From an uncultured Gammaproteobacteria bacterium (GTDB lineage: Bacteria; Patescibacteriota; Patescibacteriia; Magasanikbacterales; GWA2-37-8): a stretch of DNA of 64,000 bases. The first letter of the stretch is position 1; every line of letters starts with the position of its first letter. The DNA lies in contig CAZINT010000002.1 in assembly GCA_964540825.1 (NCBI GenBank), forward strand, positions 128,993-192,992. Reading direction: 5' to 3'. A model generated the notes under the pieces. It saw only the letters and a list, made by a program, of their open reading frames with translations. It ran no database searches and was not told the origin of the DNA. The translations under genes and the position numbers were made by a program. Of the stretch, positions 6,634 to 63,645 are shown piece after piece.

Positions 6634-7719
6634 TTATAATTCAACAAATGTTTGATCCCCAATAATAAGGCGGTGAGGACTGTTTTCTGGGTGTGCGAGC
6701 ACCTTTGCTTCTTTACCAATAATACTTTCCGTAATAGACACATCAGCCTCAAGGCGGCAGTCATTAAAGACAATAGAATTTTCAATCGTCATACTTTTCA
6801 CGATCGAATTTGAGCCGATGGTTGTATAGGCTCCAAGTGTGCAGTTTTCAAGATAGCAATTATCACCGACCAGTACCGGGCCATTAATAATTACATTTTT
6901 ACCAATAACCGTGTTTTTACCGAGCCCGATTTTCCCAGCATACTTTGTGTCCGCAAGGCACGCACACTCAAGTTTAAAATCTTTATCTGGCATTTCTTCA
7001 AACAGCAGTCTGTTAGCAGCGATAAGATCATTGGGTTTACCGGTATCTTTCCACCAGCCGGTGATTTCACGATACCCAACTTTATAGTTATTTTTTAGAA
7101 AGTAGGAATGAATGCTTGAAATTTCATACTCCCCGCGATCGGATTTAGCAATGTAATCAAAGGCCTTAAAGAAATTACGATTGTATAAATAAATACCCGT
7201 AACCGCAAAATCGCTCGCCGGTTTTTTTGGCTTTTCGATAATGTCTATAAGCGTTCCCTGACTATTAAATTCAGGAACTCCAAAACGCTCAGGGTCAGGA
7301 ACTTTTGACAAAGCCAACATGCAGTCCAAATTTTCTGTATCAAATGTTTCAAACAGCGGCACTAAACTGCCGAGCACAATATTATCGGAGAGGTAAAACA
7401 TAAACGGGTCGTCCCCAATAAATTTTTCGGCGCACTTCACCACATGAGCAATTCCTTGCGGCCCTCCGGTCTGTTCAAAGCACGTTACACGTATCCCCCA
7501 GCGACTGCCACCACCAACCGCTTCCTGAATCTGGGTTTCACCAGGATTAGTATTGATAAAAATTTCTTCTACGCCGGCCTCGACTGCTTTTTCAATTGCA
7601 TGAAAAATCATTGGCTTACCAACCAAGGGAATAAGGTGTTTATTAATAGTCGTGGTAATTGGGCGCAGGCGCGTTGCGCGCCCACCGCCTGTCAAAATTG
7701 CTTTTTTAATGCGTGCCAT
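6634..7719 (-). CDS. rmlA: Glucose-1-phosphate thymidylyltransferase-like sugar nucleotidyltransferase, long form with a C-terminal left-handed beta-helix
   Basis: The N-terminus KKAILTGGGRATRLRPIT carries the G-x-G-T-R-L pyrophosphorylase motif. The protein is 361 aa with a C-terminal hexapeptide-repeat-like region. RmlB and RmlD lie downstream. Confidence 0.7.
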   Translation of the reverse strand: MARIKKAILTGGGRATRLRPITTTINKHLIPLVGKPMIFHAIEKAVEAGVEEIFINTNPGETQIQEAVGGGSRWGIRVTCFEQTGGPQGIAHVVKCAEKFIGDDPFMFYLSDNIVLGSLVPLFETFDTENLDCMLALSKVPDPERFGVPEFNSQGTLIDIIEKPKKPASDFAVTGIYLYNRNFFKAFDYIAKSDRGEYEISSIHSYFLKNNYKVGYREITGWWKDTGKPNDLIAANRLLFEEMPDKDFKLECACLADTKYAGKIGLGKNTVIGKNVIINGPVLVGDNCYLENCTLGAYTTIGSNSIVKSMTIENSIVFNDCRLEADVSITESIIGKEAKVLAHPENSPHRLIIGDQTFVEL

Positions 7720-7723
7720 AGAT

Positions 7724-8830
7724 TTACCAAAAGAGAATTTTTTTTATTATGCGCCAGTAAAGCGATAACACAGGATTACCGATTGAATTCAAAAGAAAAT
7801 TATTAACCGCCGGATCATCAAAAACAATCTTCCCTACGGTTGTTTTTAAGAGCGTGCGATCTGAAACCATACGAAACTCTTGCATATGCCGCCTTTTTCT
7901 AAGCCAAAATATCCAATTTCCAGGGTGCAGCCAATACCAGTATACCCGGATTTTTTCCTTTAGCCAACCTTTTTTGGCCGCAACTACCAAGAGTCCAAGT
8001 TCGGTCAAAAAGCCTGCCGGAAGTGTAAGCAATATCGTTCGCCAGCGATAATACATAAGAATAACCGCGTAGCGATTGCGTTCCATTAAATACATTTTTT
8101 CGGAATTACGGCTAAAGGCATATTCATGATAAAAAAGTGAAGTAGTGGCTACCCCCACTTTTAAACCAGCCAGTTTGAGACGCAGCGAAAACTCTAAATC
8201 TTCGTGATACAAAAATAAGTCTTCATCAAGCAAGCCGTATGTTTTAACAAGGTCTTTACCAATCAGTAGAGCCGCCCCGCTGGCATAGCCAATTTCTGTT
8301 ATTTTTTCCGGCGTATCACGGAGCTGATCTTGGAGCGGCAGTTTATATTTATCGCAATAACCAAAGCCTAAAAAATGTAAGTTATTGCCCATGCTATTAA
8401 TTTTTTCAGGAGCGTGATGCAGCAAAATTACTGATTGGAGCGCGCCAAAACTTTTATCAGATTCAGCTGCAGCCACAATTTCAGCAAGCGCGTTTTTTTC
8501 TAAATACCCATCTTGATTATGTAAAAAAATGTAGTCACACCCAAGTTCAAGCGCTCGGGCAATACCGACATTATTGCCGCCAGCAAAGCCCAAATTTTTT
8601 GTTTGCGGTAAAATGATTATTTCCGGTAATTCTTTTGTGGACAAAGGCTCCAACAGCGCTCTCAGGTACTGCTCGGCGGATCCAAAATCGGGGTGCGGAT
8701 TATCTACTACAATAAAAACTAACCTATCCTTAGGATAGGTAGTTTTTGCCAAGGCCTCAATCGCTCGGGGTAAAAACGGTTCAGGGTGATAGGCCAGATA
8801 GACGATGCCCAGCTTAGGATATTGGTCCAT
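7724..8830 (-). CDS. Glycosyltransferase family 2
   Basis: The N-terminal GT-A region reads VFIVVDNPHPD and a DxD-like motif reads HNQDGY. Confidence 0.8.
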   Translation of the reverse strand: MDQYPKLGIVYLAYHPEPFLPRAIEALAKTTYPKDRLVFIVVDNPHPDFGSAEQYLRALLEPLSTKELPEIIILPQTKNLGFAGGNNVGIARALELGCDYIFLHNQDGYLEKNALAEIVAAAESDKSFGALQSVILLHHAPEKINSMGNNLHFLGFGYCDKYKLPLQDQLRDTPEKITEIGYASGAALLIGKDLVKTYGLLDEDLFLYHEDLEFSLRLKLAGLKVGVATTSLFYHEYAFSRNSEKMYLMERNRYAVILMYYRWRTILLTLPAGFLTELGLLVVAAKKGWLKEKIRVYWYWLHPGNWIFWLRKRRHMQEFRMVSDRTLLKTTVGKIVFDDPAVNNFLLNSIGNPVLSLYWRIIKKILFW

Positions 8831-9680
8831 AGTATTTATGCGTACCGCGCCATTTCCACATGTACTTAAGCCAGCTTAACAGGTGCAAACGGGCTAAACG
8901 ATTTTTAAAAAGAGCACGCCATACTCCCGGGATTTTCGCAGATTCGCGCTCATGGCGGTGTTTAATAACAATATCGTGCACAAAATAAACCGGCCATCCT
9001 TTCTCCCACATCGACCGGCACCAATCACAATCTTCCATATAAATAAAATACCGTTCATCAAACCAGCCCACCTCCATCGCGACTTCATGGCGCACGACCA
9101 TGGCTGCGCCCAAGACCCAATCCACCGGGCGCGTCGAATTACGGTCAAAATCGGCCATGAGCAGTCGATCCGTATACTTTTTCACCCACGCGTATTTCTT
9201 GTCCCAGTTAATTTGTTTGAATGGTTTGATCAAAATAGAGCTCAAGTCAAACCGAAAGCATGCTTGCTGCACACTGTCATCCATGCCGATCAGCTTCGGC
9301 CCAATACATCCAATTTTAGGATGAACATCCATAAAGGTAATTAAGCGGTCAATCGTCTTGTTGCCCTCGGGAATAATCGTGTCTCGATTGAGGGCAAAAT
9401 AATAACGAGCGGGTACGGCTTTGAAGCCAGCTGCATTGCCTTTACCGAAACCAACGTTATCTTTCAAATTAATATATTTAACGCTGGGAAATTTTTGATA
9501 CAGGTCTTTGCCAATACTATCTTGATTATTTGAATTATCAACGACCGTAATATGAATAGCATAAGACGACCCGGCAATGTCTTTCATAACCGAATCGATC
9601 GCGCGCAAGATATCATCCTTGCAAAAGTAATTGAGAAATACGATGTTAAGATCTTTCATTTGTATAATTAAGTCCACCAT
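8814..9680 (-). CDS. Glycosyltransferase family 2
   Basis: GT-A fold motifs (VVDNSNNQD, DxD region). The 3' end overlaps the downstream gene by 17 bp, consistent with translational coupling. Confidence 0.8.
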   Translation of the reverse strand: MVDLIIQMKDLNIVFLNYFCKDDILRAIDSVMKDIAGSSYAIHITVVDNSNNQDSIGKDLYQKFPSVKYINLKDNVGFGKGNAAGFKAVPARYYFALNRDTIIPEGNKTIDRLITFMDVHPKIGCIGPKLIGMDDSVQQACFRFDLSSILIKPFKQINWDKKYAWVKKYTDRLLMADFDRNSTRPVDWVLGAAMVVRHEVAMEVGWFDERYFIYMEDCDWCRSMWEKGWPVYFVHDIVIKHRHERESAKIPGVWRALFKNRLARLHLLSWLKYMWKWRGTHKYYGPIS

Positions 9681-10702
9681 TTTCGAAGTTCCAGCGCAGT
9701 TATCTTTTTGTATGCTTGGATAACTTTTTGTGCTTGCTTAAAATCTTGGCGGTGCTTCCACAGCTCGAGCAGCCCCTTTAAAATACTTGGCTTAAAGAAT
9801 AAAAAATACCCAAACTTCTTTATTTCATACCATAAAAGGGCCAAAAAATCAAGGGTAGAACCCTCCCATGCTGCGTTTTTATAAAGCGTAGCCAAATGAT
9901 TTTTATAGCTGTGATACGCAACAAAATCAGACTGCAAACGTTTACCCCGTACTGCTGCAGCATCACCGAGTTTAGCGCCGTGGGCCGCTGTTCGATCGTG
10001 ATACGCTACTGCATTCATGACGCTGTAGGCCTCAAACCCAGCTAGGCGAAGGCGGAAAGCCAAATCGACATCTTCTTTATACATAGTGTATAAACCGTCA
10101 AAAACTGTACCGGCCGGAAGAAGCACTGCTTCAAGACAGCTTCGTCTGAAGAGCGGCAATGCACCGGAAACGCCAAATACTTCAACGGTGCCAGACTTCT
10201 GATGAGGCCCCCAAGTCTCCCCCGCCCCCCACTCAACAACGCGCCGATTTTTGAGGACACGCAAGCCCAAAGAATCAATTGTTGTTGTAAAGCCGTGCTC
10301 CGCGCCTGCTGTGGCTGACCGGACAAAATCCCAGCGCATAAGGCGCGGTGTACAGACGGCTGCCTGTGGACGTTCTTTAAGCGCGGCTAGTAATTTTTCA
10401 AAACAGTCAGCTGCGAGATACAGATCTTGATTAAGAAGTACCACAAACCGACTAGCACTTTTCGTAAAGGCAAGATTATGCCCACCCGCAAAACCCTGAT
10501 TGGTCGTACTTATAATCAGTTCTGACTTTTGTACCAGTGATTGCAGCTCATTTTCTAAGATATGCACGGTTTCGTCGGTGGAATTATTATCAACAACAAT
10601 AATATCCCAATCAGTAAAGGTCTGATGCTTAAGCGAAGCAAAAAGAAACGGCAAATATTTAGCGCCGTTCCAGGTGACTAGTTGTACTGTCAGCTGAGAC
10701 AT
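9668..10702 (-). CDS. Glycosyltransferase family 2
   Basis: TVQLVTWNGAKYL...IIVVDNNSTDET is a typical GT2 N-terminus. Confidence 0.8.
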   Translation of the reverse strand: MSQLTVQLVTWNGAKYLPFLFASLKHQTFTDWDIIVVDNNSTDETVHILENELQSLVQKSELIISTTNQGFAGGHNLAFTKSASRFVVLLNQDLYLAADCFEKLLAALKERPQAAVCTPRLMRWDFVRSATAGAEHGFTTTIDSLGLRVLKNRRVVEWGAGETWGPHQKSGTVEVFGVSGALPLFRRSCLEAVLLPAGTVFDGLYTMYKEDVDLAFRLRLAGFEAYSVMNAVAYHDRTAAHGAKLGDAAAVRGKRLQSDFVAYHSYKNHLATLYKNAAWEGSTLDFLALLWYEIKKFGYFLFFKPSILKGLLELWKHRQDFKQAQKVIQAYKKITALELRKWWT

Positions 10703-10704
10703 AT

Positions 10705-11592
10705 CTAACGCTCAATGGCATTTCTGAATTTAAAAATTTTTTCAGCGCTTAGTAAGCTATACAGCCAAACTACCAAAATGCTTAGTGGACTCAAAATTTG
10801 CAGCACAAATGCTTGGTAGGGCTTATGCCATTTCTTAAAATAAATGACTGCGCTTTTGAGAAACTGCTTTTGTCGCCTCACATGATTAACTTGTTTGAAA
10901 GACTGCCCCATATAATCCACGCACGATACGTGACTCAAATAATACACCTCCCAGCCTAAACGCTTGGCTTCTTTGCAAATATCGACATCTTCAAACCAAA
11001 TAAAATACCGCGGATCAAAAGCAAAACCTAGCTGCTTAACTAGTGTTCGGCGCATCAGAAAGCACGACCCTCGAACAGTATCGACACGCGCCGGCTCGCT
11101 ATCAGGCGGAAGCATATAACACCATCTTCCTAGTAATTTTGGGTAAAAAACCGGCAGCTTAAAAATAATGGCCATGAGCTGACTGAACGAAGGAAAAAGT
11201 GATGGCCTAAGAACCAGGCGGTTTTCACCCTGCTCGTTTACCAATCGGCACCCGACAATTGCTGTTTGAGCATTGGCGTCTAAAAATTTTTTCATTTCAA
11301 GCACGCTAGCACCAGACACTTCCATGTCGGGATTGAGAAATAAAAAATAATTTCCTTGCGCCCCTTTAAGTGCTTGATTGTTAGCTGCCGCAAAACCAAC
11401 ATTTTTGGTATTTTGTATTAAGGTAACCTCGGAAAATTGCTGGGAAATAATAGCGGCAGTGTTGTCGCTCGAACCATTGTCAACTACAACATGTTCGTAC
11501 GATAACCCACGCAGTGCCCGCCTGACAGAATCAAGCTGCCGGGCAATATGTCCGGCAGAATTCCAGGTGACTGTAATAACGGAAATATCCAT
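10705..11592 (-). CDS. Glycosyltransferase family 2
   Basis: The sequences ISVITVTWNSAGHI and VVDNGSSDNT match the GT2 fold. Confidence 0.8.
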   Translation of the reverse strand: MDISVITVTWNSAGHIARQLDSVRRALRGLSYEHVVVDNGSSDNTAAIISQQFSEVTLIQNTKNVGFAAANNQALKGAQGNYFLFLNPDMEVSGASVLEMKKFLDANAQTAIVGCRLVNEQGENRLVLRPSLFPSFSQLMAIIFKLPVFYPKLLGRWCYMLPPDSEPARVDTVRGSCFLMRRTLVKQLGFAFDPRYFIWFEDVDICKEAKRLGWEVYYLSHVSCVDYMGQSFKQVNHVRRQKQFLKSAVIYFKKWHKPYQAFVLQILSPLSILVVWLYSLLSAEKIFKFRNAIER

Positions 11593-11594: not shown

Positions 11595-12668
11595 TTATTT
11601 TTTGAGTGCTGCTTTGAAAAAATCGACAACTGGAATAGCCGTTGGATCAATGCCTTCGAGGAGCGCTGAATAGTAACTGGCATAACTGGTAAGGAGCAGC
11701 ACTTCAAAAACTTGGGCCAAAGCATTTTTTTCTTGAGCCACATACGAAACAACAGGAATTTTGCGTTTATCTAAAATCTGTTTGCCGACTTCATATCGTT
11801 TTTGGATACGTTTATCGTAAAGACGTGACTCAACAAAAACAAACAATAGATTCTGAGCGTTAGTTTTAGGATACAATAGCCCTTCCATGAGGTGGTGATT
11901 GAGTTCTGGCACCAAAAAGTACCCCGCAAATCGTTTGGCATTTTCGTTCATCTGGTTGGCGCCGATATGCACATTCCCGGCCAAATGCTCACTGGCAGCA
12001 TACCACACCGTTTTACCGACCGTGCCCCAAGCGAGCGCTTTGGCAAAATTATTACCGCTTTCTGCAGCAACACCGAATAAAGCGCCGTATTTGGCAATAG
12101 CTGAAAGAATTATTTTTATTTCTTTGTCGCCAAACGTAATGAGGCCGGCTGCAGCAAAAATAAGCAGCTGTCCGACTATCGAATACCCCAACCCCATGCG
12201 CGGCGAACCGCACGGATTATTTTCGGTTGTAAATAAAAAGCTGGGTAGTTTGTTTTTTTCAGCCCATGTTTTGAGTGTTCCGCCCGAAGAAATAGTAACC
12301 ACTTTCGCTTTTTTAGCGAGCGCTTCTTTGCCAGCAGCGACCGGCTCTTCGGTTGTTCCTGAATAACTGGAAACAATTACCAGCGTATCTTTTGATGCCG
12401 AAGCTGGCACATGGTACCCATTAATAATGTCTACGGGAACCTGAAGCGAGTTTGCGTAAAGCGCTTTTATAACATGCGAACCGAGCGTTGAGCCGCCCAT
12501 ACCAAGCACAATCACATTCTTAATGTTTGCATATGCTTTAGGAAGCGTAAAACGCTTACCGGAAGTAATTTGCTCAACCTGCTTACCCAAGAGCTCTAAA
12601 CTTCCGAGCATGTTTTGCGTATCTAATTTTTTTATTTTTTCACGCGAGTTGAGAATTGCCTGATGCAT
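11595..12668 (-). CDS. Bifunctional phosphoglucose/phosphomannose isomerase (archaeal-type SIS-domain PGI/PMI)
   Basis: 357 aa with SIS-domain features (VIVLGMGGSTLGSH ... VIVSSYSGTTEE). Its length and architecture match the PGI/PMI family that supplies Man-6-P and Fru-6-P. Confidence 0.65.
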   Translation of the reverse strand: MHQAILNSREKIKKLDTQNMLGSLELLGKQVEQITSGKRFTLPKAYANIKNVIVLGMGGSTLGSHVIKALYANSLQVPVDIINGYHVPASASKDTLVIVSSYSGTTEEPVAAGKEALAKKAKVVTISSGGTLKTWAEKNKLPSFLFTTENNPCGSPRMGLGYSIVGQLLIFAAAGLITFGDKEIKIILSAIAKYGALFGVAAESGNNFAKALAWGTVGKTVWYAASEHLAGNVHIGANQMNENAKRFAGYFLVPELNHHLMEGLLYPKTNAQNLLFVFVESRLYDKRIQKRYEVGKQILDKRKIPVVSYVAQEKNALAQVFEVLLLTSYASYYSALLEGIDPTAIPVVDFFKAALKK

Positions 12669-16203: not shown

Positions 16204-16476
16204 ATGTCCCATAAGAAAGCCGGTGGTTCTACAGACCTGGGCCGCGATTCGCGAGCCCAGCGACTCGGTATTAAACTCCACCAAGGTCAAGCCGCGAAAA
16301 CTGGTATGATTATCGTTCGCCAGCGCGGTACTAAAATTCACCCTGGAAAAAACGTCAAAAAAGGCAGTGACGACACTCTGTTCGCAGCCGCTCCAGGCAA
16401 AGTTGCTTTTTCTTCTCGCAAACGCCGCCGTTTTGATGGCAGCCTTAAACTGAGCAAGTTTGTAAGTGTTGTCTAA
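16204..16476 (+). CDS. rpmA: 50S ribosomal protein L27
   Basis: [16 protein letters not shown]...[16 protein letters not shown]...DTLFA... is a canonical L27 sequence. Confidence 0.95.
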
Positions 16477-17465: not shown

Positions 17466-17475
17466 AGTAGTTGCA

Positions 17476-49323: not shown

Positions 49324-49326
49324 ATT

Positions 49327-51183: not shown

Positions 51184-51198
51184 ACCTTTTAAGAAAAC

Positions 51199-52554: not shown

Positions 52555-52587
52555 TCCTTAAAACACTACTTTTAACAGTATTTGTAC

Positions 52588-59327: not shown

Positions 59328-59335
59328 ATCAAAAA

Positions 59336-60292
59336 TTAAGCCGCGTCCTCTGCGACGAGACGTAATTTAAAGTCTTCAATAGTTTTAGCAAGACCAGTAT
59401 CAAGATTAATGGCCGGCTCCCAACCAAGTAGTGTTTTCGCCAACTGTATATCCGGGCAGCGCTGCATGGGATCATCTTCACGGAACTTTCCGGAAAATAC
59501 AAAACCAGCAGTATTTCCAATAAGCTTGGAAATTTTTTCAGCGAGCTCTCTAATGGTAAATTCAACCGGGTTACCAACATTAATCGGCCCTCGCACTTCT
59601 GTGGGCGTATTCATAAGCATCATCATACCCCGAACCAAATCGTCGACATAACAAAAGCTGCGTGTCTGCGACCCATCACCATCGATGGTTAGTTGTTTAC
59701 CTTTGAGCGCCTGATAAATAAAGTTAGAAATTACCCGTCCATCATTAAAAGCCATTCGCGGACCATACGTATTAAAAATACGTATGATCTTGATTTCTAA
59801 ACCATGCATGCGGTAATAATCTAAAAAGAGTGTCTCTGCGCAGCGTTTGCCCTCGTCATAACACGCGCGCGGGCCAAGCGTATTTACATTCCCGCGGTAT
59901 GTCTCCGGTTGAGGGTGCACCTCAGGATCGCCATATACTTCTGAGGTTGAAGCTTGAAGAATACGAGCAGCGTGTTTCCGGGCCAACCCCAGCATGTTAA
60001 TGACCCCGACGGTACAGGCTTTTGTAGTATGTACCGGATTATGCTGATAATGTACTGGAGAAGCCGGACAAGCCAGGTTATATATCTGGTCAATCTTTTC
60101 GTCGAAAAAAAACGGTTCGACAATATCGTGTTTGATAAAAGTAAAACGCGGATTATCAAGCAAATGCTGAATGTTAGCAGTCGAACCGGTAAAGAGATTA
60201 TCGAGACAAATAACCGAATGCCCCGCTTCAAGCAGCTGCTCGGAAAGATGAGAACCAATAAAACCACCACCTCCCGTTACTAAAATACGCAT
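59336..60292 (-). CDS. uxs: UDP-glucuronate decarboxylase (UDP-xylose synthase)
   Basis: [16 protein letters not shown] ... [16 protein letters not shown] ... [14 protein letters not shown] shows near-canonical UXS motifs, including YxxxK. Confidence 0.85.
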
Positions 60293-60428
60293 AGAAATAA
60301 GCTAGGTCTACAGCCGAATAGTTTAAGAAGTGGCAGCCATAGTAACACCGCACTTTTTTACACTTAAACCCCGAATTTAGACATTTTTTAGTACTTATAG
60401 TATGCTGTATTTAGCCTAAAAAGTCAAT

Positions 60429-61613
60429 ATGGATGCAAAAATAAAAATTCTCTACGTCATCACCCAAGGAGCATGGGGCGGAGCTCAGCGATACATTTTT
60501 GATCTCGCCACAAACTTGTCGGACACTTTTGAAATCTCGGTCGCAATCGGTGAATTACCCACTACTAATGACCTCCAAAAAAAATTGGAAGAATGGCAAA
60601 CCGAACATCCAAGCGTCCAACTCACCATCATACAACTTAAGCACCTCCATCGTTCCATTCGTCCTGCCGAAGATATACGGGGCGTTATTGAACTAGCCGG
60701 ACTTTACCACCGCCTCAAGCCCGACATTATCCATCTCAACAGCACTAAAGCAGGTATCATTGGATCTTTTGCAAAGCTGGGAACTGCTTTAAGAACAACG
60801 AAGTACATTTATACTGTTCACGGATGGGTATTTAACGAATCACTTAGCCCCAAAATCCGCTCTCTCTATGTTTGGCTCGAAAAATTAACCGCTCGAGTCA
60901 AAGACAAAATAATTGTTTTATCCGAACAAGACCGCACTTCTGGGGAACGTGTTTTAGGGATTTCCAAAAATAATTTTTGCCTTATTCCACTCGGGATTGC
61001 CCTGCCACGTCCAACCTGGAGCAAAACCAAAGCGCGGGAGATATTGACTGCCTACCTTGGCGACGCTGCTACTAACGATAAGCGCTGGATCGGTACGGTC
61101 GCTAATTTCTACCCTACCAAGGGGCTCGATATTCTCATCGAAGCTATTAGAATTATTAAAGAAAAATTGCCCCCCGTTGTATTTGTTCTTATTGGTGAAG
61201 GACCCGAACAAACTGCTATCGAGGCACATATTAAAAAGTACAAATTAACTGATATAGTGCACTTGACTGGCGCCTTAGATAATGCCGCAGCTCTTATGCC
61301 AGCCTTTGACCTCTTTGTTGTACCGTCGCGCAAGGAAGGTCTTCCCTATGTTATACTTGAAGCCTCAGGAAGCGGTGTTCCGGTTATTGCAACTGCTGTA
61401 GGCGGCATCCCAACGCTTATCCAAAATAATAAAACCGGCGTACTCGTAGAACAACCTTCGGCCGGTTTATTAAGTGAAAAAATTCTATTCGCACTGGCGA
61501 ATCCTGATATAATGCTTCGCTATGCTCTAGCTGCAAAAAACAATCAAGATACTTCATCACTCGCTGCTATGCTAGATGCGACCGAAGCTATTTACCGCTC
61601 TTTGCTGGAGTAG
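60429..61613 (+). CDS. Glycosyltransferase family 4
   Basis: The sequence EGLPYVILEASGSGVPVIATAVGG. Its 3' end overlaps the convergent gene by 26 bp. Confidence 0.8.
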   Translation: MDAKIKILYVITQGAWGGAQRYIFDLATNLSDTFEISVAIGELPTTNDLQKKLEEWQTEHPSVQLTIIQLKHLHRSIRPAEDIRGVIELAGLYHRLKPDIIHLNSTKAGIIGSFAKLGTALRTTKYIYTVHGWVFNESLSPKIRSLYVWLEKLTARVKDKIIVLSEQDRTSGERVLGISKNNFCLIPLGIALPRPTWSKTKAREILTAYLGDAATNDKRWIGTVANFYPTKGLDILIEAIRIIKEKLPPVVFVLIGEGPEQTAIEAHIKKYKLTDIVHLTGALDNAAALMPAFDLFVVPSRKEGLPYVILEASGSGVPVIATAVGGIPTLIQNNKTGVLVEQPSAGLLSEKILFALANPDIMLRYALAAKNNQDTSSLAAMLDATEAIYRSLLE

Positions 61614-63645
61614 ACGAGGCAACAATTTGTTCAACTTGCAAAGCTTGATCGGTAAACGTCAAACCTCGTTCGTGGGCAAGTTTTAAAATATCACGTGCCT
61701 TGGCATTTTGGCCCATGAGCTGGTAGAGATATGCAAAACGCCAATATGTTTCAATAATCTTTGGATCATCGTCAAGTGCTTGCTGCATTAAAGCAACCGC
61801 TTCATCGTTTTTTCCAAGCTGCAGTTTAAAATTAGCCAGCGTATACAAAAACTGCTGCCGGCGCGGCGAAAACGTAAGTCCTGTGCTTATGTAGCTTTCG
61901 GCTTCAGCAATAAATTTAGGATCTTTTGTAAAAGTATAGCCAAGCTGCCCAAGCTGCGATAAAAGAAGATATGCTCGGATATCAGCAGGATGTAACTTAA
62001 GATTTTCTTGAAGCGCTCCATAGGCAGTATTTAACAACTCTGTATTAGTTGCCTTGTCCATTTTTTGATAGTTGGACGATAAAACATCTGCTATAGTGCG
62101 AGAAATGTCACTGCGAATATCATCGATATGAGGCGAGTTAAAAGCAATGGCTTCTTTAGCCGCTGAAAGACCCAGAACAGGATTGCGTGACAGTTCCTGA
62201 AGGGCTGTTAAGGTTTTTTGGTTAGCACGCGCCGGTTGAATGTTAAAAATAAAGATAAGCACACCCACAGCTATAAGCGAACCGATGCCAAGGCCGGTTC
62301 CCAGCGGCCGATCGGCAGCAATTGTTTTAGCTCCAGTTTCTGTAGCAGCCAATTCTTGTGAAGACGGTACAGCAGCCAAACGATTAACCATCGCCAGCCA
62401 AAAAATAAAGTAAAGGTATGAGGTGGGATTTTCAAAAACAGTAATATTTTGAATTAAATGCGCTACCAAGAAACCAGAACACCACAAAACCAGATGCAGC
62501 TTATTCTGTCGGTTATCCCGGGTTTGCCAGAGGGTCATGAGTGTTACCACAAAGATACCCAAATACGTAAGCACACCAAAGATACCCTGAACTGTTAGTG
62601 TGTTAACCAGAATATTATGCGCATTATCAAACCACGTTTCTCCATAGCCGTATTCGAGCGAACGAGGATTATAGTACTTGTTAAAAGCGTAGAAAAAATT
62701 ATTTGGCCCCCACCCAAAAATAGGATATTCTTTCCAACTTTCAAAACCGATTTTCCAAGCTATCAAACGCGTATCGCTCGTTCCTCCGCTTAAATTAGTT
62801 GTGACTAAACGCCCAAGCGCTGGAATTTTTTGAACAAAAGGGTTGGCACGGAGGGCAAATAAAACTGCCAAAACAACAACTCCAACCCCAATACTGCCCA
62901 GCAGTGAATTGCGAACCTTAGTATTACCATTTAAAAGAAAAATGTAGCCAAGCATAACTACAGCTAAACCTGCAAATAAGCCAAGCACTGAACCGCGCGT
63001 ACCACTGAAAAATATTCCAAGAAGCGCTAAAAAGGCGAATAAACCATAGATTATTTTTTTACTAAGAACTTTTTCTTTAACTAAAAGAAGCATGGCAACG
63101 AACAACAAAAATAGTCCGTAACCTCCAACATAAATTGCGTTTCCGAGCGTGCTTGCCACACGGTCACTCCCCTGATTTAAGAGCAGGTCGGGATTAAACT
63201 TTTGTAAAACACCAATAAACATGACAACTGAGCCTGCCCCTAAAAAAATTTGTAATGCAAGCTTCCAATCTGACCATTTTTTAAATACAGCAGTACAAAC
63301 AAAATAATAAATAACGTAATGAACAATAGTAAACAGCCCGAGCATACGCTCGTGATTATCCCAAAAACTGTGGTAGGCATCAAAACCAACAAATGTAGAT
63401 ATGGCAAAGCTCAATAAAAACCCAGCCAAAGCTAAACTTGTTGGGCTGATACGGGGTCGATATTCTTCATAATTAATATAAAGAAGTGTGATATAGCCAC
63501 CAAGCATCGCAATGACGAGGGAGCGAAAAAGAAGGACTTTCGGTACTACAAAAGGAAAGATAAACGAACTGGGCGCCAAAACAAGTGGAACAAAAAAAGT
63601 AGCGTAAATAAGGAGCTTAACTACCTGTTCAATAGTTCGTTTCAT
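61588..63645 (-). CDS. O-antigen ligase/polymerase-like (Wzy_C) membrane protein with C-terminal TPR repeats
   Basis: 685 aa with about 12 TM helices. A Wzy_C-like region reads FSGTRGSVLGLFAGL. The C-terminal soluble domain of about 200 aa has TPR-like repeats (AYLLLSQLGQL...YWRFAYLYQLMGQNAKA). Confidence 0.65.
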   Translation of the reverse strand: MKRTIEQVVKLLIYATFFVPLVLAPSSFIFPFVVPKVLLFRSLVIAMLGGYITLLYINYEEYRPRISPTSLALAGFLLSFAISTFVGFDAYHSFWDNHERMLGLFTIVHYVIYYFVCTAVFKKWSDWKLALQIFLGAGSVVMFIGVLQKFNPDLLLNQGSDRVASTLGNAIYVGGYGLFLLFVAMLLLVKEKVLSKKIIYGLFAFLALLGIFFSGTRGSVLGLFAGLAVVMLGYIFLLNGNTKVRNSLLGSIGVGVVVLAVLFALRANPFVQKIPALGRLVTTNLSGGTSDTRLIAWKIGFESWKEYPIFGWGPNNFFYAFNKYYNPRSLEYGYGETWFDNAHNILVNTLTVQGIFGVLTYLGIFVVTLMTLWQTRDNRQNKLHLVLWCSGFLVAHLIQNITVFENPTSYLYFIFWLAMVNRLAAVPSSQELAATETGAKTIAADRPLGTGLGIGSLIAVGVLIFIFNIQPARANQKTLTALQELSRNPVLGLSAAKEAIAFNSPHIDDIRSDISRTIADVLSSNYQKMDKATNTELLNTAYGALQENLKLHPADIRAYLLLSQLGQLGYTFTKDPKFIAEAESYISTGLTFSPRRQQFLYTLANFKLQLGKNDEAVALMQQALDDDPKIIETYWRFAYLYQLMGQNAKARDILKLAHERGLTFTDQALQVEQIVASSTPAKSGK

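What the first reader, a model, noticed from the sequence alone, without database searches (positions are those of the whole stretch)
6634..63645. Glycan-biosynthesis supercluster of more than 50 kb combining four nucleotide-sugar families and heavy post-polymerisation modification
One nearly contiguous, mostly co-directional, translationally coupled block contains about 14 GT2/GT4 glycosyltransferases. Its modification enzymes include O-acylation (MBOAT plus a DltD-like protein), pyruvylation, three or more SAM methyltransferases, an FkbM methyltransferase, a CE4 deacetylase and an AsnB-type amidotransferase. It also encodes an ABC exporter and a Wzy/ligase–TPR fusion. Many genes overlap by 4–17 bp, for example at 8814–8830, 9668–9680, 47515–47518, 53283–53286, 54335–54338, 55324–55336 and 56483–56496. 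For a small, dense genome this is an exceptional investment, and it implies a complex, highly decorated surface polysaccharide or glycoprotein. RmlA, RmlB and RmlD are present but no RmlC epimerase is seen in the window, so the dTDP product may not be L-rhamnose.
Basis: partly seen in the sequence, partly recalled or inferred. Interest (0 to 1): 0.5.

Follow-up and report, generated by a model that had tools for sequence, protein, structure and literature searches.

The report
Composite surface-glycan locus in CPR bacterium
A tiny-genome groundwater-type bacterium (Candidate Phyla Radiation, Magasanikbacteria) devotes about 57 kb to sugar-coat genes, but this is a lineage-conserved rhamnose/cell-division core joined to a strain-variable block of swappable gene cassettes, and the "missing" rhamnose gene is explained by a plant/giant-virus-type two-in-one enzyme.

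Summary
Window 6634-63645 is 97% coding. All seven cited overlaps are exact.

It is not one unit. Comparison with 160 related loci shows three layers:
- A core (5416-18894) that keeps its gene order across Magasanikbacteria: RmlA, four GT2, PGI/PMI, an RmlD-like gene, RmlB, FtsW, bL27, a 4-epimerase-like SDR and UGDH.
- A roughly 34-40 kb variable block (18921 to about 53-59 kb). Colinearity with the two nearest genomes stops at base 18883. The block is built from cassettes that recur elsewhere in other combinations.
- A semi-conserved module next to the Wzy_C-TPR gene (53283-63645).

The rmlC puzzle is resolved. The "RmlD" matches Arabidopsis NRS/ER, a bifunctional 3,5-epimerase/4-reductase, at E=2e-46, against about 1e-4 for true RmlD. 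It keeps the ER-specific T-G-C motif and all catalytic residues. L-rhamnose is therefore the likely product without RmlC.

The glycan's structure and acceptor remain inferred. No initiating phosphoglycosyltransferase, Wzx or LCP ligase lies in the window.

Verdict: a new variant of known kinds (Rha-CWPS-like bipartite locus, hypervariable glycan island). Interest is moderate.

The parts
5416..6621 (-). Conserved membrane protein of unknown family (401 aa, about 4 C-terminal TM segments).
   Evidence: 12-bp gap to RmlA. Syntenic at 66-94% identity in L002, L046, L011 and L004. No Pfam or NCBIfam hit.
6634..7719 (-). RmlA, long form (glucose-1-phosphate thymidylyltransferase with a C-terminal left-handed beta-helix).
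   Evidence: TIGR01208 rmlA_long 325.9 bits against a cut-off of 320.25. Pfam NTP_transferase plus Hexapep. Found at the syntenic position in 27 of 47 relatives with enough flank.
7724..11592 (-). Four consecutive GT2 glycosyltransferases: GT2a 7724-8830, GT2b 8814-9680, GT2c 9668-10702, GT2d 10705-11592. They are candidate backbone (rhamnosyl) transferases.
   Evidence: Pfam Glycos_transf_2 / Glyco_tranf_2_3. Syntenic in 34-40 of 48-57 relatives. Against the nearest genome L002, GT2b is 95% identical but GT2a is 76%, GT2c 67% and GT2d 49%, while flanking genes are 87-94%. There is no nucleotide alignment across most of GT2d. Sugar specificity was not tested.
11595..12668 (-). Bifunctional phosphoglucose/phosphomannose isomerase.
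   Evidence: Pfam bact-PGI_C plus SIS. The best NCBIfam families are all bifunctional PGI/PMI, but below their cut-offs.
12695..13540 (-).
   Evidence: Solved structures: 4QQR Arabidopsis 3,5-epimerase/4-reductase E=2e-46 (39% identity over 254 residues); 7JID mimivirus UDP-L-rhamnose synthase E=1e-27; true RmlD (1VL0, 3SC6, 1KBZ) E=6e-5 to 4e-3. TIGR01214 rmlD scores 75 bits against a cut-off of 224. T97, C99, Y123, K127 and K161 align with NRS/ER T113, C115, Y144, K148 and K183. The motif is T-G-C here and in both ER structures, but T-D-Y in RmlD. G98, C99, Y123, K127 and K161 are invariant in 120 of 120 homologues.
13550..14554 (-). RmlB, dTDP-glucose 4,6-dehydratase.
   Evidence: TIGR01181 450.9 bits against a cut-off of 365.1. 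Adjacent to FtsW in 51 of 74 relatives.
14559..15686 (-). FtsW (SEDS peptidoglycan polymerase), a housekeeping gene inside the core operon.
   Evidence: Pfam FTSW_RODA_SPOVE 296.6 bits. TIGR02614 ftsW 338.8 against a cut-off of 337.5. Gaps are 4 bp to RmlB and 7 bp to the upstream small gene.
15694..16113 (-). Small membrane protein (139 aa), first gene of the core operon. No family assigned.
   Evidence: tblastn hits directly upstream of FtsW in 68 of the 81 loci held (the 80 relatives plus L001, a contig of the same organism); 24 hits are at 40% identity or more. Hydrophobic segments predicted. No Pfam hit even at E<=1.
16204..16476 (+). rpmA, ribosomal protein bL27, on the opposite strand. 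It splits the core into two transcription units. The 102-aa ORF at 16192-16500(-) is its shadow.
   Evidence: tblastx conservation is strongest in the + frame (75 loci, mean 151 bits). phmmer against PDB bL27 gives E=2.5e-23.
16551..18894 (-). UDP-glucose 6-dehydrogenase (17476-18894) and a GalE/TviC-like SDR (16551-17522; probable UDP-uronate/hexose 4-epimerase). This is the end of the conserved core.
   Evidence: TIGR03026 264.6 bits against a cut-off of 189.8. AglM/TuaD and TviC/GalE are the best named families, all below cut-off. 85-93% identical in L002 and L003. Nucleotide colinearity with both genomes ends at window 18883.
18921..24311 (-). Edge of the variable block. It holds a MsbA/PglK/HepA-type ABC half-transporter (18921-20714), a KpsC-like ulosonic-acid transferase candidate (20756-22270), a NeuC/LegG-type hydrolysing UDP-GlcNAc 2-epimerase (22457-23632) and a CMP-nonulosonate synthetase (23613-24311).
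   Evidence: NCBIfam HepA/MsbA/PglK families. Pfam Capsule_synth 43 bits, and KpsC is the only PDB relative. There is a weak hit to the T. forsythia BFO_1060 NulO-transferase family (PMC5420450). TIGR03568 417.7 bits against a cut-off of 235.9. PseF-like at 147.8, below cut-off. The ABC is only 42-49% identical in L002 and L003, and the other genes are absent there.
24536..30982 (+). Plus-strand unit: PfkB kinase, HAD phosphatase, NeuB-type nonulosonate synthase (26156-27160), polysaccharide pyruvyl transferase (27290-28453), FemAB-like acyltransferase, SAM methyltransferase and CE4 deacetylase (29933-30982).
   Evidence: Pfam. NeuB_NnaB 298.5 bits against a cut-off of 399.65, and PseI 230 bits. 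No counterpart at this position in any of the 80 FtsW-anchored loci.
30979..38926 (.). Recurring cassette: weak FkbM-like methyltransferase (30979-31755 -), GT4a (31832-33028 -), TylC3-class sugar C-methyltransferase (33109-34362 +), DegT/LegC-like aminotransferase (34295-35497 +), GC-rich NUDIX (35612-36175 -), SDR2 (36282-37274 -), and a fusion of nucleotide-sugar-dehydrogenase N and central domains with a SAM methyltransferase (37286-38926 -).
   Evidence: Pfam. LegC family is the best hit at 283.6 bits against a cut-off of 420. Another contig, L162, carries CapsSynth 46%, FkbM, NUDIX 61%, GT4 39%, C-MT 48%, SDR2 60% and the fusion 57% together. L165 carries part of the same set.
39024..41506 (-). 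O-acylation pair: MBOAT (40004-41506) and an SGNH-like partner (39024-40001).
   Evidence: MBOAT 109.4 bits. Partner: DUF1574 27.4 against a cut-off of 29.1, GDSL_2 E=0.004, DltD E=0.04. 2-bp gap between them. MBOAT homologues at 47-68% sit in the Wzy-linked loci L147, L134 and L105.
41539..44267 (-). GT2e (43329-44267; C-terminal TM segments) plus a GT-C-fold glycosyltransferase from a family with no Pfam model (41539-43320).
   Evidence: AlphaFold2 model: pLDDT 91.4, pTM 0.90. Foldseek best matches are STT3, PglB, AftA, DPY19 and ArnT (probability 1.00, E about 1e-6, TM 0.45-0.53). Homologues in L164 and L165 always follow a GT2 of about 245 aa.
44271..46001 (-). Sugar-1-phosphate nucleotidyltransferase (240 aa; Rv-ManC/MurU/HddC-like, specificity open) and a LegB-type NAD-dependent 4,6-dehydratase.
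   Evidence: TIGR04180 LegB 484.2 bits against a cut-off of 475. The nucleotidyltransferase reaches no equivalog cut-off.
46076..53286 (-). Recurring cassette: GT-C (46076-47518, weak PMT_2), GT4b, SAM methyltransferase, AsnB-type amidotransferase (49327-51183), GT-C PMT_2 (51199-52554), and a 232-aa polyprenyl-phosphate-sugar-synthase-like GT2f (52588-53286).
   Evidence: Pfam. GT2f's best families are AglJ, PgfS and PpgS. L164 carries GT2f 70%, MT, GT-C 45%, AsnB 56%, GT2 and GT4b 42% in the same order.
53283..63645 (.). Wzy-proximal module: GT4c-f (53283-57685 -), GT-C PMT/PMT_2 (57633-59327 -), UXS/ArnA-like SDR3 (59336-60292 -), GT4g (60429-61613 +) and a Wzy_C + TPR membrane protein (61588-63645 -).
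   Evidence: Pfam. Wzy_C-TPR is 44-58% identical over its full length in 80 metagenome loci. The order Wzy/GT4g/SDR3/GT4f/e/d/c is kept in L105 and L115, and most of it (without GT4c, and in L090 without GT4g) in L090 and L095. SDR3 abuts UGDH in 9 of 35 relatives. In L053, Wzy_C-TPR lies about 2 kb from FtsW.

Best explanation
The window comes from a Candidatus Magasanikbacteria (CPR/Patescibacteria) genome. The region is a composite cell-envelope glycan locus with three layers.

**(1) Conserved core (5416-18894).** One minus-strand operon runs: small membrane protein, FtsW, RmlB, NRS/ER-type epimerase-reductase, PGI/PMI, four GT2, long-form RmlA, membrane protein. A second unit ends in UGDH and a 4-epimerase-like SDR. 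The two are separated by rpmA on the other strand. The core supplies dTDP-L-rhamnose by a three-enzyme route: RmlA, RmlB, then one SDR that performs both the 3,5-epimerisation and the 4-reduction, so no RmlC is needed. It also supplies UDP-uronic acids. I infer that it builds a rhamnose-containing backbone glycan on a polyprenyl carrier. The site is next to, and probably co-expressed with, septal peptidoglycan synthesis.

**(2) Strain-variable block (18921 to about 53-59 kb).** It sits between conserved UGDH and the UXS-like SDR3/Wzy_C-TPR. It is assembled from cassettes that recur in other genomes in other combinations:
- a sialic-acid-like (nonulosonic) pathway with a KpsC-like transferase;
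- a C-methyl/amino-sugar cassette with a dehydrogenase-methyltransferase fusion;
- an MBOAT/SGNH O-acylation pair;
- three pairings of GT-A and GT-C enzymes, which decorate the glycan outside the membrane from polyprenyl-phosphate sugars;
- amidation, pyruvylation, methylation and deacetylation enzymes.

**(3) Semi-conserved module next to Wzy_C-TPR.** It holds five GT4, UXS and one GT-C. Lipid-linked units are probably flipped by the PglK/MsbA-type ABC protein. They are then polymerised or transferred to their acceptor by the Wzy_C-TPR protein(s).

**Shown:** gene families, synteny, breakpoints, ER-type residues, the GT-C fold.
**Inferred:** sugar identities beyond L-rhamnose and UDP-GlcA, order of assembly, the acceptor (wall polymer or protein), and diversifying selection as the cause of variability.
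For: **Taxonomy.** The 80 genomes with the closest FtsW are almost all Magasanikbacteria or Patescibacteria MAGs (lineage).

**Core synteny.**
- tblastn of window proteins against 81 loci gives the same gene order in most relatives. Examples: RmlB 51/74, the GT2 genes about 70%, RmlA 27/47, UGDH 34/60.
- In L053 the whole locus is only about 13 kb: PBP, Mur ligase, Wzy_C-TPR, Gmd, small protein, FtsW, RmlB, ER, PGI, four GT2, RmlA, then PilT.

**Variable block.**
- blastn colinearity with L002 (FtsW 91%) and L003 (82%) ends at 18883.
- At that spot L002 has a cytidylyltransferase, GNAT, GFO/IDH/MocA oxidoreductase and inositol monophosphatase. L003 has NeuC-like, formyltransferase, DegT and PseB-like genes.
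- Cassettes recur in L162, L164, L165 and L105.
- There are no recent paralogues; all pairs are at or below 34% identity.
- There are no flanking repeats and no integrase or transposase domain. Island genes range from GC 0.38 to 0.47, overlapping the core's 0.39-0.47, apart from NUDIX.

**Rhamnose route.** JGI already labels some homologues '3,5-epimerase/4-reductase'.

**Extracytoplasmic decoration.** Three PMT_2 GT-Cs, one new GT-C fold, and the AglJ/PgfS/PpgS-like GT2f.

**Precedents.** Bipartite Rha-CWPS loci with GT-A/GT-C multicomponent systems (PMC9574508). The Pelagibacter hypervariable region.
Against: - No initiating phosphoglycosyltransferase (PF00953 or PF02397), Wzx/MurJ-type or GtrA-type flippase, ABC-2 (RgpC/D-type) exporter, chain-length regulator or LCP ligase is present in the window. 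The assembly route therefore cannot be closed from these genes.
- The specificity of the four core GT2 enzymes is unknown, and GT2b has no solved relative. 'Rhamnan-like backbone' rests only on their linkage with the rml genes.
- Co-expression with FtsW is inferred from gaps of 4-7 bp. The promoter and terminator scans were at chance level.
- The right boundary of the variable block is fuzzy. SDR3 abuts UGDH in only 9 of 35 relatives.
- Only 10 kb of flank was available per relative, so island sizes in other genomes are unknown.
- The type of nonulosonic acid is unresolved. LegB is above its cut-off, but LegC, LegI and LegF are below theirs and no LegH was found. A kinase-phosphatase-synthase trio hints at a 9-phosphate route instead.
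- ER activity is predicted from 39% identity and conserved residues. It has not been measured.
Confidence: 0.62

Rival explanations
1. The whole region is a single co-regulated supercluster. All of about 50 genes cooperate to make one giant, highly decorated polysaccharide.
For: - Every non-housekeeping gene is glycan-related.
- Coding density is 97%, with many 4-17 bp overlaps.
- No unrelated metabolic genes interrupt the run.
Against: - There are seven strand blocks, including rpmA on the opposite strand inside the region.
- The core occurs without the rest in relatives such as L053 and L004.
- Cassettes occur separately in other contigs.
- Four separate GT-A/GT-C style systems and two Wzy_C-TPR paralogues suggest several products or acceptors.
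Confidence: 0.15
2. The locus is mainly a general protein O-glycosylation system rather than a wall polysaccharide. It would target pilins, S-layer or other surface proteins. The Wzy_C-TPR proteins would act as PglL/PilO-like oligosaccharyltransferases, and the PMT_2/STT3-like GT-Cs would glycosylate proteins.
For: - The Wzy_C domain is shared by O-antigen ligases and O-oligosaccharyltransferases. That is established knowledge, not tested here.
- An organism without lipid A has no WaaL substrate.
- PMT/PMT_2 hits and the STT3/PglB-like fold of 41539-43320.
- Nonulosonic acids commonly cap protein glycans, as in T. forsythia (PMC5420450).
- A PilT gene flanks the conserved locus here and in L004 and L053.
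Against: - No acceptor protein or sequon evidence exists.
- The core is welded to ftsW and, in L053, to PBP and Mur-ligase genes. That points to the wall.
- GT-C folds of this type also act on glycopolymers (ArnT and AftA are among the best matches; Rha-CWPS systems).
- The two readings are not exclusive.
Confidence: 0.25
3. The roughly 40-kb block is a recently acquired mobile genomic island from another phylum.
For: - It is absent from the nearest relatives at this site.
- One gene (NUDIX, 35612-36175) has GC 0.63 against about 0.43.
Against: - No integrase, transposase or recombinase domain is present in any ORF.
- No flanking direct or inverted repeats of 24 nt or more lie at the borders, and no tRNA lies at the borders.
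- Island gene GC is 0.38-0.47, overlapping the core's 0.39-0.47.
- The homologue of the NUDIX gene is GC-rich in another contig too, so this is a family trait.
- Cassette homologues (39-70% identity) sit in contigs with similar gene content. Of these only L164 can be tied to the clade: it comes from the same assembly as L046, a FtsW relative. L162 and L165 are untyped.
Confidence: 0.08
4. Because RmlC is absent, the dTDP pathway ends in a 6-deoxyhexose other than L-rhamnose, such as dTDP-D-quinovose/fucose or 6-deoxy-D-allose.
For: - No RmlC is found in the window or in 81 related loci.
- The reductase is far below the rmlD equivalog cut-off.
- A C-methyltransferase and an aminotransferase in the island could divert dTDP-4-keto-6-deoxyglucose to other sugars as well.
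Against: - The reductase is an NRS/ER-type enzyme: E=2e-46, with the ER-specific T-G-C motif and the Lys counterpart of K183.
- These residues are invariant in 120 homologues.
- Characterised members of this type make dTDP- or UDP-beta-L-rhamnose (PMC9741107; PMC3220709).
Confidence: 0.15

Closest known systems
Rhamnose-rich cell-wall polysaccharide loci of streptococci, lactococci and enterococci (rgp / cwps / epa)
   Same: - rml genes are clustered with several GT-A glycosyltransferases.
- The layout is bipartite: a conserved backbone part and a strain-variable side-chain part.
- Decoration happens outside the membrane, using GT-A polyprenyl-phosphate-sugar synthases paired with poorly conserved multi-TM GT-C enzymes.
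- There is a link to cell-wall architecture and division (PMC9574508; PMC9746298).
   Different: - The epimerase/reductase step uses one NRS/ER-type enzyme instead of RmlC plus RmlD.
- The ABC protein is a MsbA/PglK-type half-transporter, not the RgpC/D ABC-2 pair.
- No TagO/WecA-type initiator, Wzx or LCP ligase lies in the locus.
- ftsW and rpmA sit inside the locus.
- The organism is a CPR bacterium, and no glycan chemistry is known for it.
Positionally conserved hypervariable surface-glycan regions of streamlined genomes (Pelagibacter HVR2); O-antigen and capsule loci between conserved flanks
   Same: - Conserved flanking genes with sharply different content between close relatives.
- Content is dominated by glycosyltransferases, SDR epimerases, DegT aminotransferases and dehydratases.
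- The size is tens of kb in a genome of about 1 Mb.
   Different: - There are no tRNA anchors at the borders.
- GC is not clearly lower.
- The flanks here are themselves glycan and cell-division genes.
- Population-level variability was not measured; only species-level representatives were compared.
Plant NRS/ER (UER1, PDB 4QQR) and mimivirus L780 UDP-L-rhamnose synthase (PDB 7JID)
   Same: - A single SDR domain of about 280-300 aa.
- 39% identity to NRS/ER.
- The Thr/Tyr/Lys reduction triad and the Cys/Lys pair are conserved.
   Different: - It is bacterial.
- It is partnered with bona fide dTDP-type RmlA and RmlB rather than a UDP-glucose dehydratase.
- Nucleotide preference and activity are untested.
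- Reviews describe this enzyme type as eukaryotic or giant-viral, and a 2011 survey found only four bacterial homologues.
Nonulosonic-acid (legionaminic / pseudaminic / neuraminic) loci of Campylobacter, Tannerella forsythia and others
   Same: - LegB and NeuC/LegG equivalogs are present.
- NeuB-type synthase, CMP-synthetase and DegT aminotransferase are present.
- A candidate dedicated transferase lies next to the pathway genes.
- Relatives carry Pse-like genes at the same site. This mirrors the strain-specific Pse/Leg swap in T. forsythia (PMC5420450).
   Different: - The pathway genes are scattered over three transcription units about 20 kb apart.
- No LegH-type N-acetyltransferase was found.
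- A PfkB kinase and a HAD phosphatase precede the synthase.
- The candidate transferase is KpsC-like rather than Maf-like.
Three-component glycosylation systems (GtrB/CsbB/PgfS-type GT-A, flippase, GT-C)
   Same: - A small GT2 without or with C-terminal TM segments lies next to a multi-TM GT-C: GT2e with 41539-43320, and GT2f with 51199-52554.
- GT2f's best families are AglJ, PgfS and PpgS.
   Different: - No GtrA-family flippase is detected.
- There are four GT-Cs in one locus.
- One GT-C belongs to a family with no Pfam model.

Membership tests
Classical bacterial dTDP-L-rhamnose pathway (RmlABCD) | RmlA glucose-1-phosphate thymidylyltransferase | tested here: met
   TIGR01208 rmlA_long 325.9 bits against a cut-off of 320.25.
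Classical bacterial dTDP-L-rhamnose pathway (RmlABCD) | RmlB dTDP-glucose 4,6-dehydratase | tested here: met
   TIGR01181 450.9 bits against a cut-off of 365.1.
Classical bacterial dTDP-L-rhamnose pathway (RmlABCD) | RmlC cupin 3,5-epimerase | tested here: not met
   No dTDP_sugar_isom hit in any ORF. tblastn with the validated Salmonella RmlC (1DZR) gave no hit below E=0.1 in the window or in 81 related loci. The rest of the genome was not available.
Classical bacterial dTDP-L-rhamnose pathway (RmlABCD) | RmlD-type 4-reductase (equivalog) | tested here: not met
   TIGR01214 75.2 bits against a cut-off of 224. PDB RmlD structures match only at E=6e-5 to 4e-3. The motif is T-G-C instead of the T-D-Y of RmlD.
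NRS/ER-type bifunctional 3,5-epimerase/4-reductase | Closest sequence relatives are characterised ER enzymes | tested here: met
   4QQR E=2e-46 (39% identity); 7JID E=1e-27.
NRS/ER-type bifunctional 3,5-epimerase/4-reductase | Reduction triad (T113/Y144/K148) and epimerisation pair (C115/K183). The role of each residue is assigned from my recollection of the 4QQR study and was not checked in the library. | tested here: met
   T97, C99, Y123, K127 and K161 align with them. They are invariant in 120 homologues, except that position 97 is Thr or Ser.
NRS/ER-type bifunctional 3,5-epimerase/4-reductase | Converts NDP-4-keto-6-deoxy-D-glucose to NDP-beta-L-rhamnose without RmlC | not testable with these tools
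   This needs an enzyme assay.
Legionaminic acid pathway (PtmE, LegB, LegC, LegH, LegG, LegI, LegF) | LegB 4,6-dehydratase | tested here: met
   TIGR04180 484.2 bits against a cut-off of 475.
Legionaminic acid pathway (PtmE, LegB, LegC, LegH, LegG, LegI, LegF) | LegG/NeuC hydrolysing 2-epimerase | tested here: met
   TIGR03568 417.7 bits against a cut-off of 235.9. This model does not separate NeuC from LegG.
Legionaminic acid pathway (PtmE, LegB, LegC, LegH, LegG, LegI, LegF) | LegC aminotransferase, LegI synthase, LegF CMP-synthetase | tested here: inconclusive
   The right families are the best hits, but all fall below cut-off: LegC 283.6 against 420, NeuB 298.5 against 399.65, PseF 147.8 against 205.7.
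Legionaminic acid pathway (PtmE, LegB, LegC, LegH, LegG, LegI, LegF) | LegH hexapeptide N-acetyltransferase | tested here: not met
   No stand-alone hexapeptide acetyltransferase is in the window. The only candidate acyltransferase is a FemAB-like protein.
Rha-CWPS (rgp/cwps) locus | rml genes clustered with several GT-A/GT-B transferases, plus GT-A/GT-C side-chain systems | tested here: met
   The feature list is taken from PMC9574508.
Rha-CWPS (rgp/cwps) locus | RgpC/D ABC-2 exporter, TagO/WecA initiator, LCP ligase | tested here: not met
   No ABC2_membrane, Glycos_transf_4, Bac_transf or LytR_cpsA_psr hit in any window ORF. The ABC protein is of the MsbA/PglK type. These genes could lie elsewhere in the genome.
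Rha-CWPS (rgp/cwps) locus | Rhamnosyltransferase activity of the clustered GTs; rhamnan attached to peptidoglycan | not testable with these tools
   This needs biochemistry or cell-wall analysis.
Wzx/Wzy-dependent O-antigen or capsule locus | Wzy-type polymerase or ligase domain | tested here: met
   Wzy_C 71.5 bits against a cut-off of 31.7, fused to TPR. A second paralogue lies beyond the window.
Wzx/Wzy-dependent O-antigen or capsule locus | Wzx flippase, chain-length regulator, initiating phosphoglycosyltransferase | tested here: not met
   No Polysacc_synt/MATE-like, Wzz or PGT domain in the window.
Hypervariable glycan island between conserved flanks | Conserved flanks with different gene content in close relatives | tested here: met
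   The break is at 18883 in both L002 and L003, and different genes sit there. The flank genes UGDH, SDR3 and Wzy_C-TPR are contiguous or nearly so in L004 and L053.
Hypervariable glycan island between conserved flanks | Within-population variability (a metagenomic island) | not tested
   This needs read recruitment or many genomes of the same species. Only one representative per species was searched.

The most novel reading that the evidence does not exclude
A whole CPR lineage may make L-rhamnose by a 'eukaryotic/giant-virus' route, with bacterial RmlA and RmlB plus an NRS/ER-type bifunctional enzyme and no RmlC. This pathway and four GT2 genes are hard-wired into the same operon as the divisome polymerase FtsW. 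That would imply a rhamnose-based secondary wall polymer laid down together with septal peptidoglycan in ultrasmall bacteria. The adjacent cassette-swapping block would then set a strain-specific outer glycan, including sialic-acid-like sugars, that governs host attachment or phage recognition. It would also make CPR bacteria a candidate reservoir or source of the eukaryotic and giant-virus rhamnose synthase.
Probability: 0.3. Interest if true: 0.62.

Novelty: new variant of a known kind. Interest (0 to 1): 0.45.

Why it matters
CPR/Patescibacteria are mostly uncultured episymbionts with genomes of about 1 Mb. Their surface presumably mediates host attachment and phage susceptibility, yet their glycans are chemically unknown. 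This analysis offers four things.

- **A concrete map.** It separates what is lineage-conserved and probably structural from what is strain-variable and probably under diversifying pressure.
- **A testable enzymology claim.** An RmlC-independent L-rhamnose route may be widespread in CPR. Reviews describe bacteria as RmlC/RmlD-dependent and treat the bifunctional enzyme as eukaryotic or viral.
- **A GT-C family with no Pfam model, and two recurring unexplained cassettes.** One cassette contains the dehydrogenase-methyltransferase fusion, an SDR, a C-methyltransferase and NUDIX. The other contains a GT2, a GT-C and AsnB.
- **A caution for annotation.** 'RmlD present, RmlC absent' should not be read as 'no rhamnose'.

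If the locus proves ordinary on chemical analysis, the value is mainly in annotation.

Tried and rejected
- **Promoter and terminator consensus scan** (two further calls failed on a length limit). Counts were at the shuffle expectation, so it gave no help with operon borders.
- **Repeat search over the whole window**. It returned only short families that look like chance. There are no island-flanking repeats.
- **Rfam at gathering and permissive thresholds**. It found only the two tRNA-Pro genes. The conserved stretch at 16.1-16.5 kb is not an RNA but rpmA.
- **PDB sequence searches.** GT2b, the HAD and the PfkB kinase gave no hits. The specificity of the GT2 enzymes and the idea of a 9-phosphate nonulosonate route therefore stay open.
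- **GDP-D-rhamnose/GDP-mannose reading of the core.** I considered it because of the PGI/PMI gene and the NTP-transferase with a left-handed beta-helix. I rejected it because RmlA_long and the dTDP-glucose dehydratase both pass their equivalog cut-offs, while gmd and ManC score far lower.
- **Foreign origin of the GC-rich NUDIX gene.** I considered it, but its homologue in another contig is GC-rich too.
- **Look-ups of window proteins in public assemblies.** They returned only short contigs of the same organism. The rest of the 248,779-bp source contig could not be read, so rmlC, a phosphoglycosyltransferase and LCP could not be sought genome-wide.
- **Literature searches.** CPR with nonulosonic acids, and Magasanikbacteria with rhamnose or glycosyltransferases, found nothing on this locus. 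The paper assigning C115/K183 was not in the library.

Full report
**1. What is in the sequence**

I called the main ORFs and scanned all of them against Pfam. The nucleotide-sugar enzymes and the unknowns were also scanned against NCBIfam.

Between 6634 and 63645 the sequence is 97% coding. Apart from two housekeeping genes, every gene is glycan-related. The glycosyltransferase count is:
- six GT2;
- seven GT4;
- three PMT_2-type GT-C enzymes;
- one further GT-C recognised only by fold (see section 5);
- one KpsC-like transferase.

- MBOAT with an SGNH-like partner;
- pyruvyl transferase;
- CE4 deacetylase;
- AsnB-type amidotransferase;
- at least four SAM methyltransferases, including a TylC3-class C-methyltransferase;
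- an ABC exporter;
- a Wzy_C-TPR fusion.

'FkbM' and 'DltD-like' are only sub-threshold hits.

Some longer apparent overlaps are probably start codons called too far upstream. These are -68 at 34295, -47 at 17522 and -53 at 57685.

No paralogue pair exceeds 34% identity. The enzyme set is therefore diverse rather than amplified.

**2. Whose genome**

The 80 species-representative genomes with the closest FtsW are almost all Candidatus Magasanikbacteria or Patescibacteria MAGs (lineage). Many records titled 'uncultured Gammaproteobacteria' sit among them with the same gene order. These look like placeholder labels.

Relatives have single contigs of 0.96-1.04 Mb, and the source contig is 248,779 bp. 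If the genome is about 1 Mb, the locus is about 5-6% of it. That figure is an inference.

**3. The region is composite**

I ran tblastn of every window protein against 81 FtsW-anchored loci. The following gene order is kept in most relatives:
- unk401, RmlA, GT2a-d, PGI/PMI, ER, RmlB, FtsW, small membrane protein;
- then bL27 on the other strand;
- then SDR1 and UGDH.

Examples of how often each gene holds its position: RmlB 51/74, the GT2 genes about 70%, RmlA 27/47, UGDH 34/60.

Nucleotide colinearity with the two nearest genomes ends at window base 18883. These are L002 (FtsW 91% identical) and L003 (82%).

Beyond that point they carry other genes:
- L002 has a methyltransferase, an ABC protein (42% identical), an inositol monophosphatase, a GFO/IDH/MocA oxidoreductase, a GNAT and a cytidylyltransferase.
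- L003 has an ABC protein (49%), a PseB-like dehydratase, DegT, a formyltransferase and a NeuC-like gene.

Other relatives show how compact the locus can be:
- In L004 and eight further relatives, the UXS-like SDR3 (window 59336-60292) directly abuts UGDH.
- In L053 the whole locus is only about 13 kb. Its order is PBP transpeptidase, Mur ligase, Wzy_C-TPR, Gmd, small protein, FtsW, RmlB, ER, PGI/PMI, four GT2, RmlA, then PilT.

A scan anchored on Wzy_C-TPR found 80 full-length homologues. In a subset, the order Wzy/GT4g/SDR3/GT4f/e/d/c is kept.

Parts of the middle block recur in other contigs in different combinations:
- KpsC-like, FkbM, NUDIX, GT4, C-MT, SDR2 and the dehydrogenase-MT fusion in L162.
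- GT2f, MT, GT-C, AsnB, GT2 and GT4b, plus the new GT-C, in L164.
- A further mix in L165.

There are no integrase or transposase domains and no border repeats or tRNAs. Island genes range from GC 0.38 to 0.47, overlapping the core's 0.39-0.47, apart from the NUDIX gene.

Even within the core, divergence is uneven. GT2b is 95% identical to L002. GT2a is 76%, GT2c 67% and GT2d 49%, while flanking genes are 87-94%. This mosaic pattern is typical of specificity-determining transferases.

**4. The rmlC question**

RmlA (long form) and RmlB pass their NCBIfam equivalog cut-offs. The 'RmlD' scores 75 bits against a cut-off of 224.

Its matches to solved structures are as follows:

| Structure | Enzyme | E-value |
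|---|---|---|
| 4QQR | Arabidopsis NRS/ER '3,5-epimerase/4-reductase' | 2e-46 (39% identity) |
| 7JID | Mimivirus UDP-L-rhamnose synthase | 1e-27 |
| 1VL0, 3SC6, 1KBZ | Genuine RmlD | 6e-5 to 4e-3 |

- **Catalytic residues.** Five NRS/ER residues are implicated in catalysis: T113, Y144 and K148 for reduction, and C115 and K183 for epimerisation. That assignment comes from my recollection of the 4QQR paper, which I could not retrieve. All five are conserved in the window protein.
- **Discriminating motif.** In the printed alignments, both ER structures and the window protein read T-G-C where both RmlD structures read T-D-Y.
- **Conservation in the family.** G98, C99, Y123, K127 and K161 are invariant in 120 of 120 database homologues. 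Where these are named, they are Patescibacteria. Some are already labelled '3,5-epimerase/4-reductase' by JGI.
- **RmlC search.** A validated RmlC query finds nothing in the window or in 81 related loci.
- **Literature view.** Reviews describe separate RmlC and RmlD as the prokaryotic pattern, and the single-domain ER as eukaryotic and giant-viral (PMC9741107). A 2011 survey found only four bacterial homologues (PMC3220709).

The absence of rmlC is therefore real. It is best explained by an RmlC-independent route that still ends in L-rhamnose.

**5. Other pathway assignments**

- **UDP-sugars.**
  - UGDH passes the nucleotide-sugar-dehydrogenase cut-off.
  - SDR1 is GalE/TviC-like.
  - SDR3 is UXS/ArnA-like.
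- **Sialic-acid-like sugar.**
  - LegB (484 bits against a cut-off of 475) and NeuC/LegG (418 against 236) pass their cut-offs.
  - The LegC-, NeuB- and PseF-like genes have the right best hits but fall below cut-off.
  - No LegH is present.
  - A PfkB kinase and a HAD phosphatase precede the synthase.
  - I therefore call this a nonulosonic-acid pathway of unresolved type.
- **Candidate transferase.** The 504-aa Capsule_synth protein has KpsC as its only solved relative. It also has a weak hit to the T. forsythia nonulosonate-transferase family (PMC5420450).
- **Transporter.** The ABC protein is of the HepA/MsbA/PglK type.
- **GT2f.** It is AglJ/PgfS/PpgS-like, that is, a polyprenyl-phosphate-sugar synthase type.
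- **The largest unknown (41539-43320).**
  - It has no Pfam hit and only 27 database homologues.
  - Its AlphaFold2 model has pLDDT 91.4 and pTM 0.90.
  - The best fold matches are STT3, PglB, AftA, DPY19 and ArnT, with probability 1.00.
  - Its homologues always follow a small GT2.
  - It is a fourth GT-C enzyme, from a family with no Pfam model.

**6. How it most likely works**

Shown:
- the gene families;
- the synteny layers and the breakpoint;
- the ER-type active site;
- the GT-C fold.

Inferred:
- The core supplies dTDP-L-rhamnose and UDP-uronic acids, and the four GT2 enzymes build a rhamnose-containing backbone on a polyprenyl carrier.
- The backbone genes are expressed from the same operon as FtsW.
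- Variable cassettes add strain-specific side chains. These include a nonulosonic acid, a C-methyl or amino sugar, uronamide, pyruvate, and O-acyl and methyl groups.
- Part of this decoration happens outside the membrane, through pairs of GT-A and GT-C enzymes.
- The PglK-like ABC protein flips lipid-linked units.
- The Wzy_C-TPR protein(s) polymerise the units or transfer them to the acceptor.

The acceptor could be peptidoglycan or another wall polymer, or surface proteins such as pilins. This is open, and I give the protein-glycosylation rival 0.25.

The model cannot be closed from the window. No initiating phosphoglycosyltransferase, Wzx/GtrA flippase, ABC-2 exporter or LCP ligase is present there.

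**7. Comparison with known systems**

- **Closest functional analogue.** This is the bipartite rhamnose-rich cell-wall polysaccharide locus of streptococci and lactococci, with its GT-A/GT-C multicomponent decoration (PMC9574508). Several defining parts of that system are not met here: RmlC/RmlD, RgpC/D, TagO and LCP.
- **Closest evolutionary analogue.** This is the positionally conserved surface-polysaccharide hypervariable region of streamlined Pelagibacter genomes, 48-59 kb in size. That precedent tempers the claim of 'exceptional investment'.

I found no paper in the library describing this locus, nonulosonic acids in CPR bacteria, or the ER-type enzyme in CPR bacteria.

**8. Verdict**

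The locus is a new variant of known kinds. Its most original elements are:
- a lineage-wide RmlC-independent rhamnose route embedded in an ftsW operon;
- the cassette architecture of the variable block;
- a GT-C family with no Pfam model, and an unexplained cassette containing a dehydrogenase-methyltransferase fusion.

Interest is 0.45.

Noticed in passing
window 16192-16500 (-) versus 16204-16476 (+): The 102-aa minus-strand ORF is a shadow. The real gene is rpmA (ribosomal protein bL27, 90 aa) on the plus strand. It is conserved at this spot in about 75 related loci and sits inside the glycan core, between the ftsW operon and the SDR1/UGDH unit.
   Followed up: yes
window 35550-36100 (NUDIX gene 35612-36175): This is a sharp 0.5-kb patch of 65-69% GC in a sequence of about 43% GC. 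It encodes a NUDIX hydrolase from a small family of about 16 homologues. The homologue in contig L162 is also GC-enriched (0.55 against 0.44) and sits in the same cassette. The bias therefore travels with the gene family; its cause is unexplained.
   Followed up: partly
window 2400-4650, between tRNA-Pro(GGG) 2809-2883 and tRNA-Pro(CGG) 4769-4843: There are three GC-rich patches of 58-73%. One encodes a probable lipoprotein (3115-3648 -, with an LFAGC lipobox). Another encodes a DUF3455 protein (3917-4567 +), and the 255-aa minus-strand ORF over it is a shadow. Part of the region (4393-4845) aligns at 74% with relative L002, so it is not an assembly artefact. The origin of the composition is unexplained.
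   Followed up: partly
window 37286-38926 (-); L162 12786-14438: This is a fusion protein. The N-terminal and central domains of a UDP-glucose/GDP-mannose dehydrogenase, without the C-terminal UDP-binding domain, are joined to a class I SAM methyltransferase. It is 57% identical in another contig. There too it is next to the same SDR (60%) and accompanied by a C-methyltransferase (48%) and a NUDIX gene (61%). The nucleotide-sugar product of this cassette is unknown.
   Followed up: partly
window 41539-43320 (-); L164 10001-11776; L165 10001-11755: This 593-aa membrane protein has no Pfam or NCBIfam hit. It folds with high confidence as a GT-C glycosyltransferase (STT3/PglB/AftA/ArnT-like). It is always encoded right after a small GT2. 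Invariant residues include R184, P188, N346, Q348, G352 and H360 (alignment A1).
   Followed up: yes
L163 3294-6851 (same organism, just beyond window base 64000): Past the right end of the window lie an RF-1-domain protein (132 aa), a TPR protein (234 aa), a second Wzy_C-TPR paralogue (756 aa, 27% identical to the first) and a protein of more than 1055 aa with no Pfam hit. A second, weaker Wzy_C-TPR-like match (25-29% identity; only partial in L090) also appears upstream in L090, L095 and L115. The envelope locus therefore continues beyond the window.
   Followed up: partly
L053 2914-9193: In this relative a PBP transpeptidase and a Mur ligase lie directly upstream of Wzy_C-TPR. A GDP-mannose 4,6-dehydratase takes the place of the SDR1/UGDH pair. 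The conserved glycan core is thus contiguous with division/cell-wall genes there.
   Followed up: partly
window 24536-27160 (+): A PfkB-family kinase and a HAD phosphatase overlap by 14 nt and directly precede the NeuB-type synthase. This resembles the sugar-6-phosphate to nonulosonate-9-phosphate to dephosphorylation route of animal Neu5Ac and Bacteroides Kdn synthesis. That resemblance comes from my own knowledge. Neither protein has a solved relative, so the idea is untested.
   Followed up: partly
window 7724-11592 versus L002 14094-17986: Within an otherwise 87-95% identical core, GT2b is 95% identical to the nearest genome. GT2a, GT2c and GT2d are 76%, 67% and 49%, and most of GT2d has no nucleotide alignment. 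GT2d is closer to the more distant genome L003 (68%). This suggests allelic replacement by recombination inside the conserved operon.
   Followed up: partly
loci L002, L003, L004 and many others: Many public MAG records that share the Magasanikbacteria gene order, with FtsW identities in the same range as MAGs named Magasanikbacteria or higher, are titled 'uncultured Gammaproteobacteria bacterium'. This is evidently a placeholder or a wrong label.
   Followed up: no
window 46051-46079 (-): This is the best sigma-70-like match in the right third of the window (45000-64000), the only part that was scanned: TTGACA, 17 nt, GATAAT, 11 of 12 positions. It lies in the 74-bp gap upstream of the LegB gene. 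It may be an internal promoter, but the scan as a whole was at chance level.
   Followed up: no
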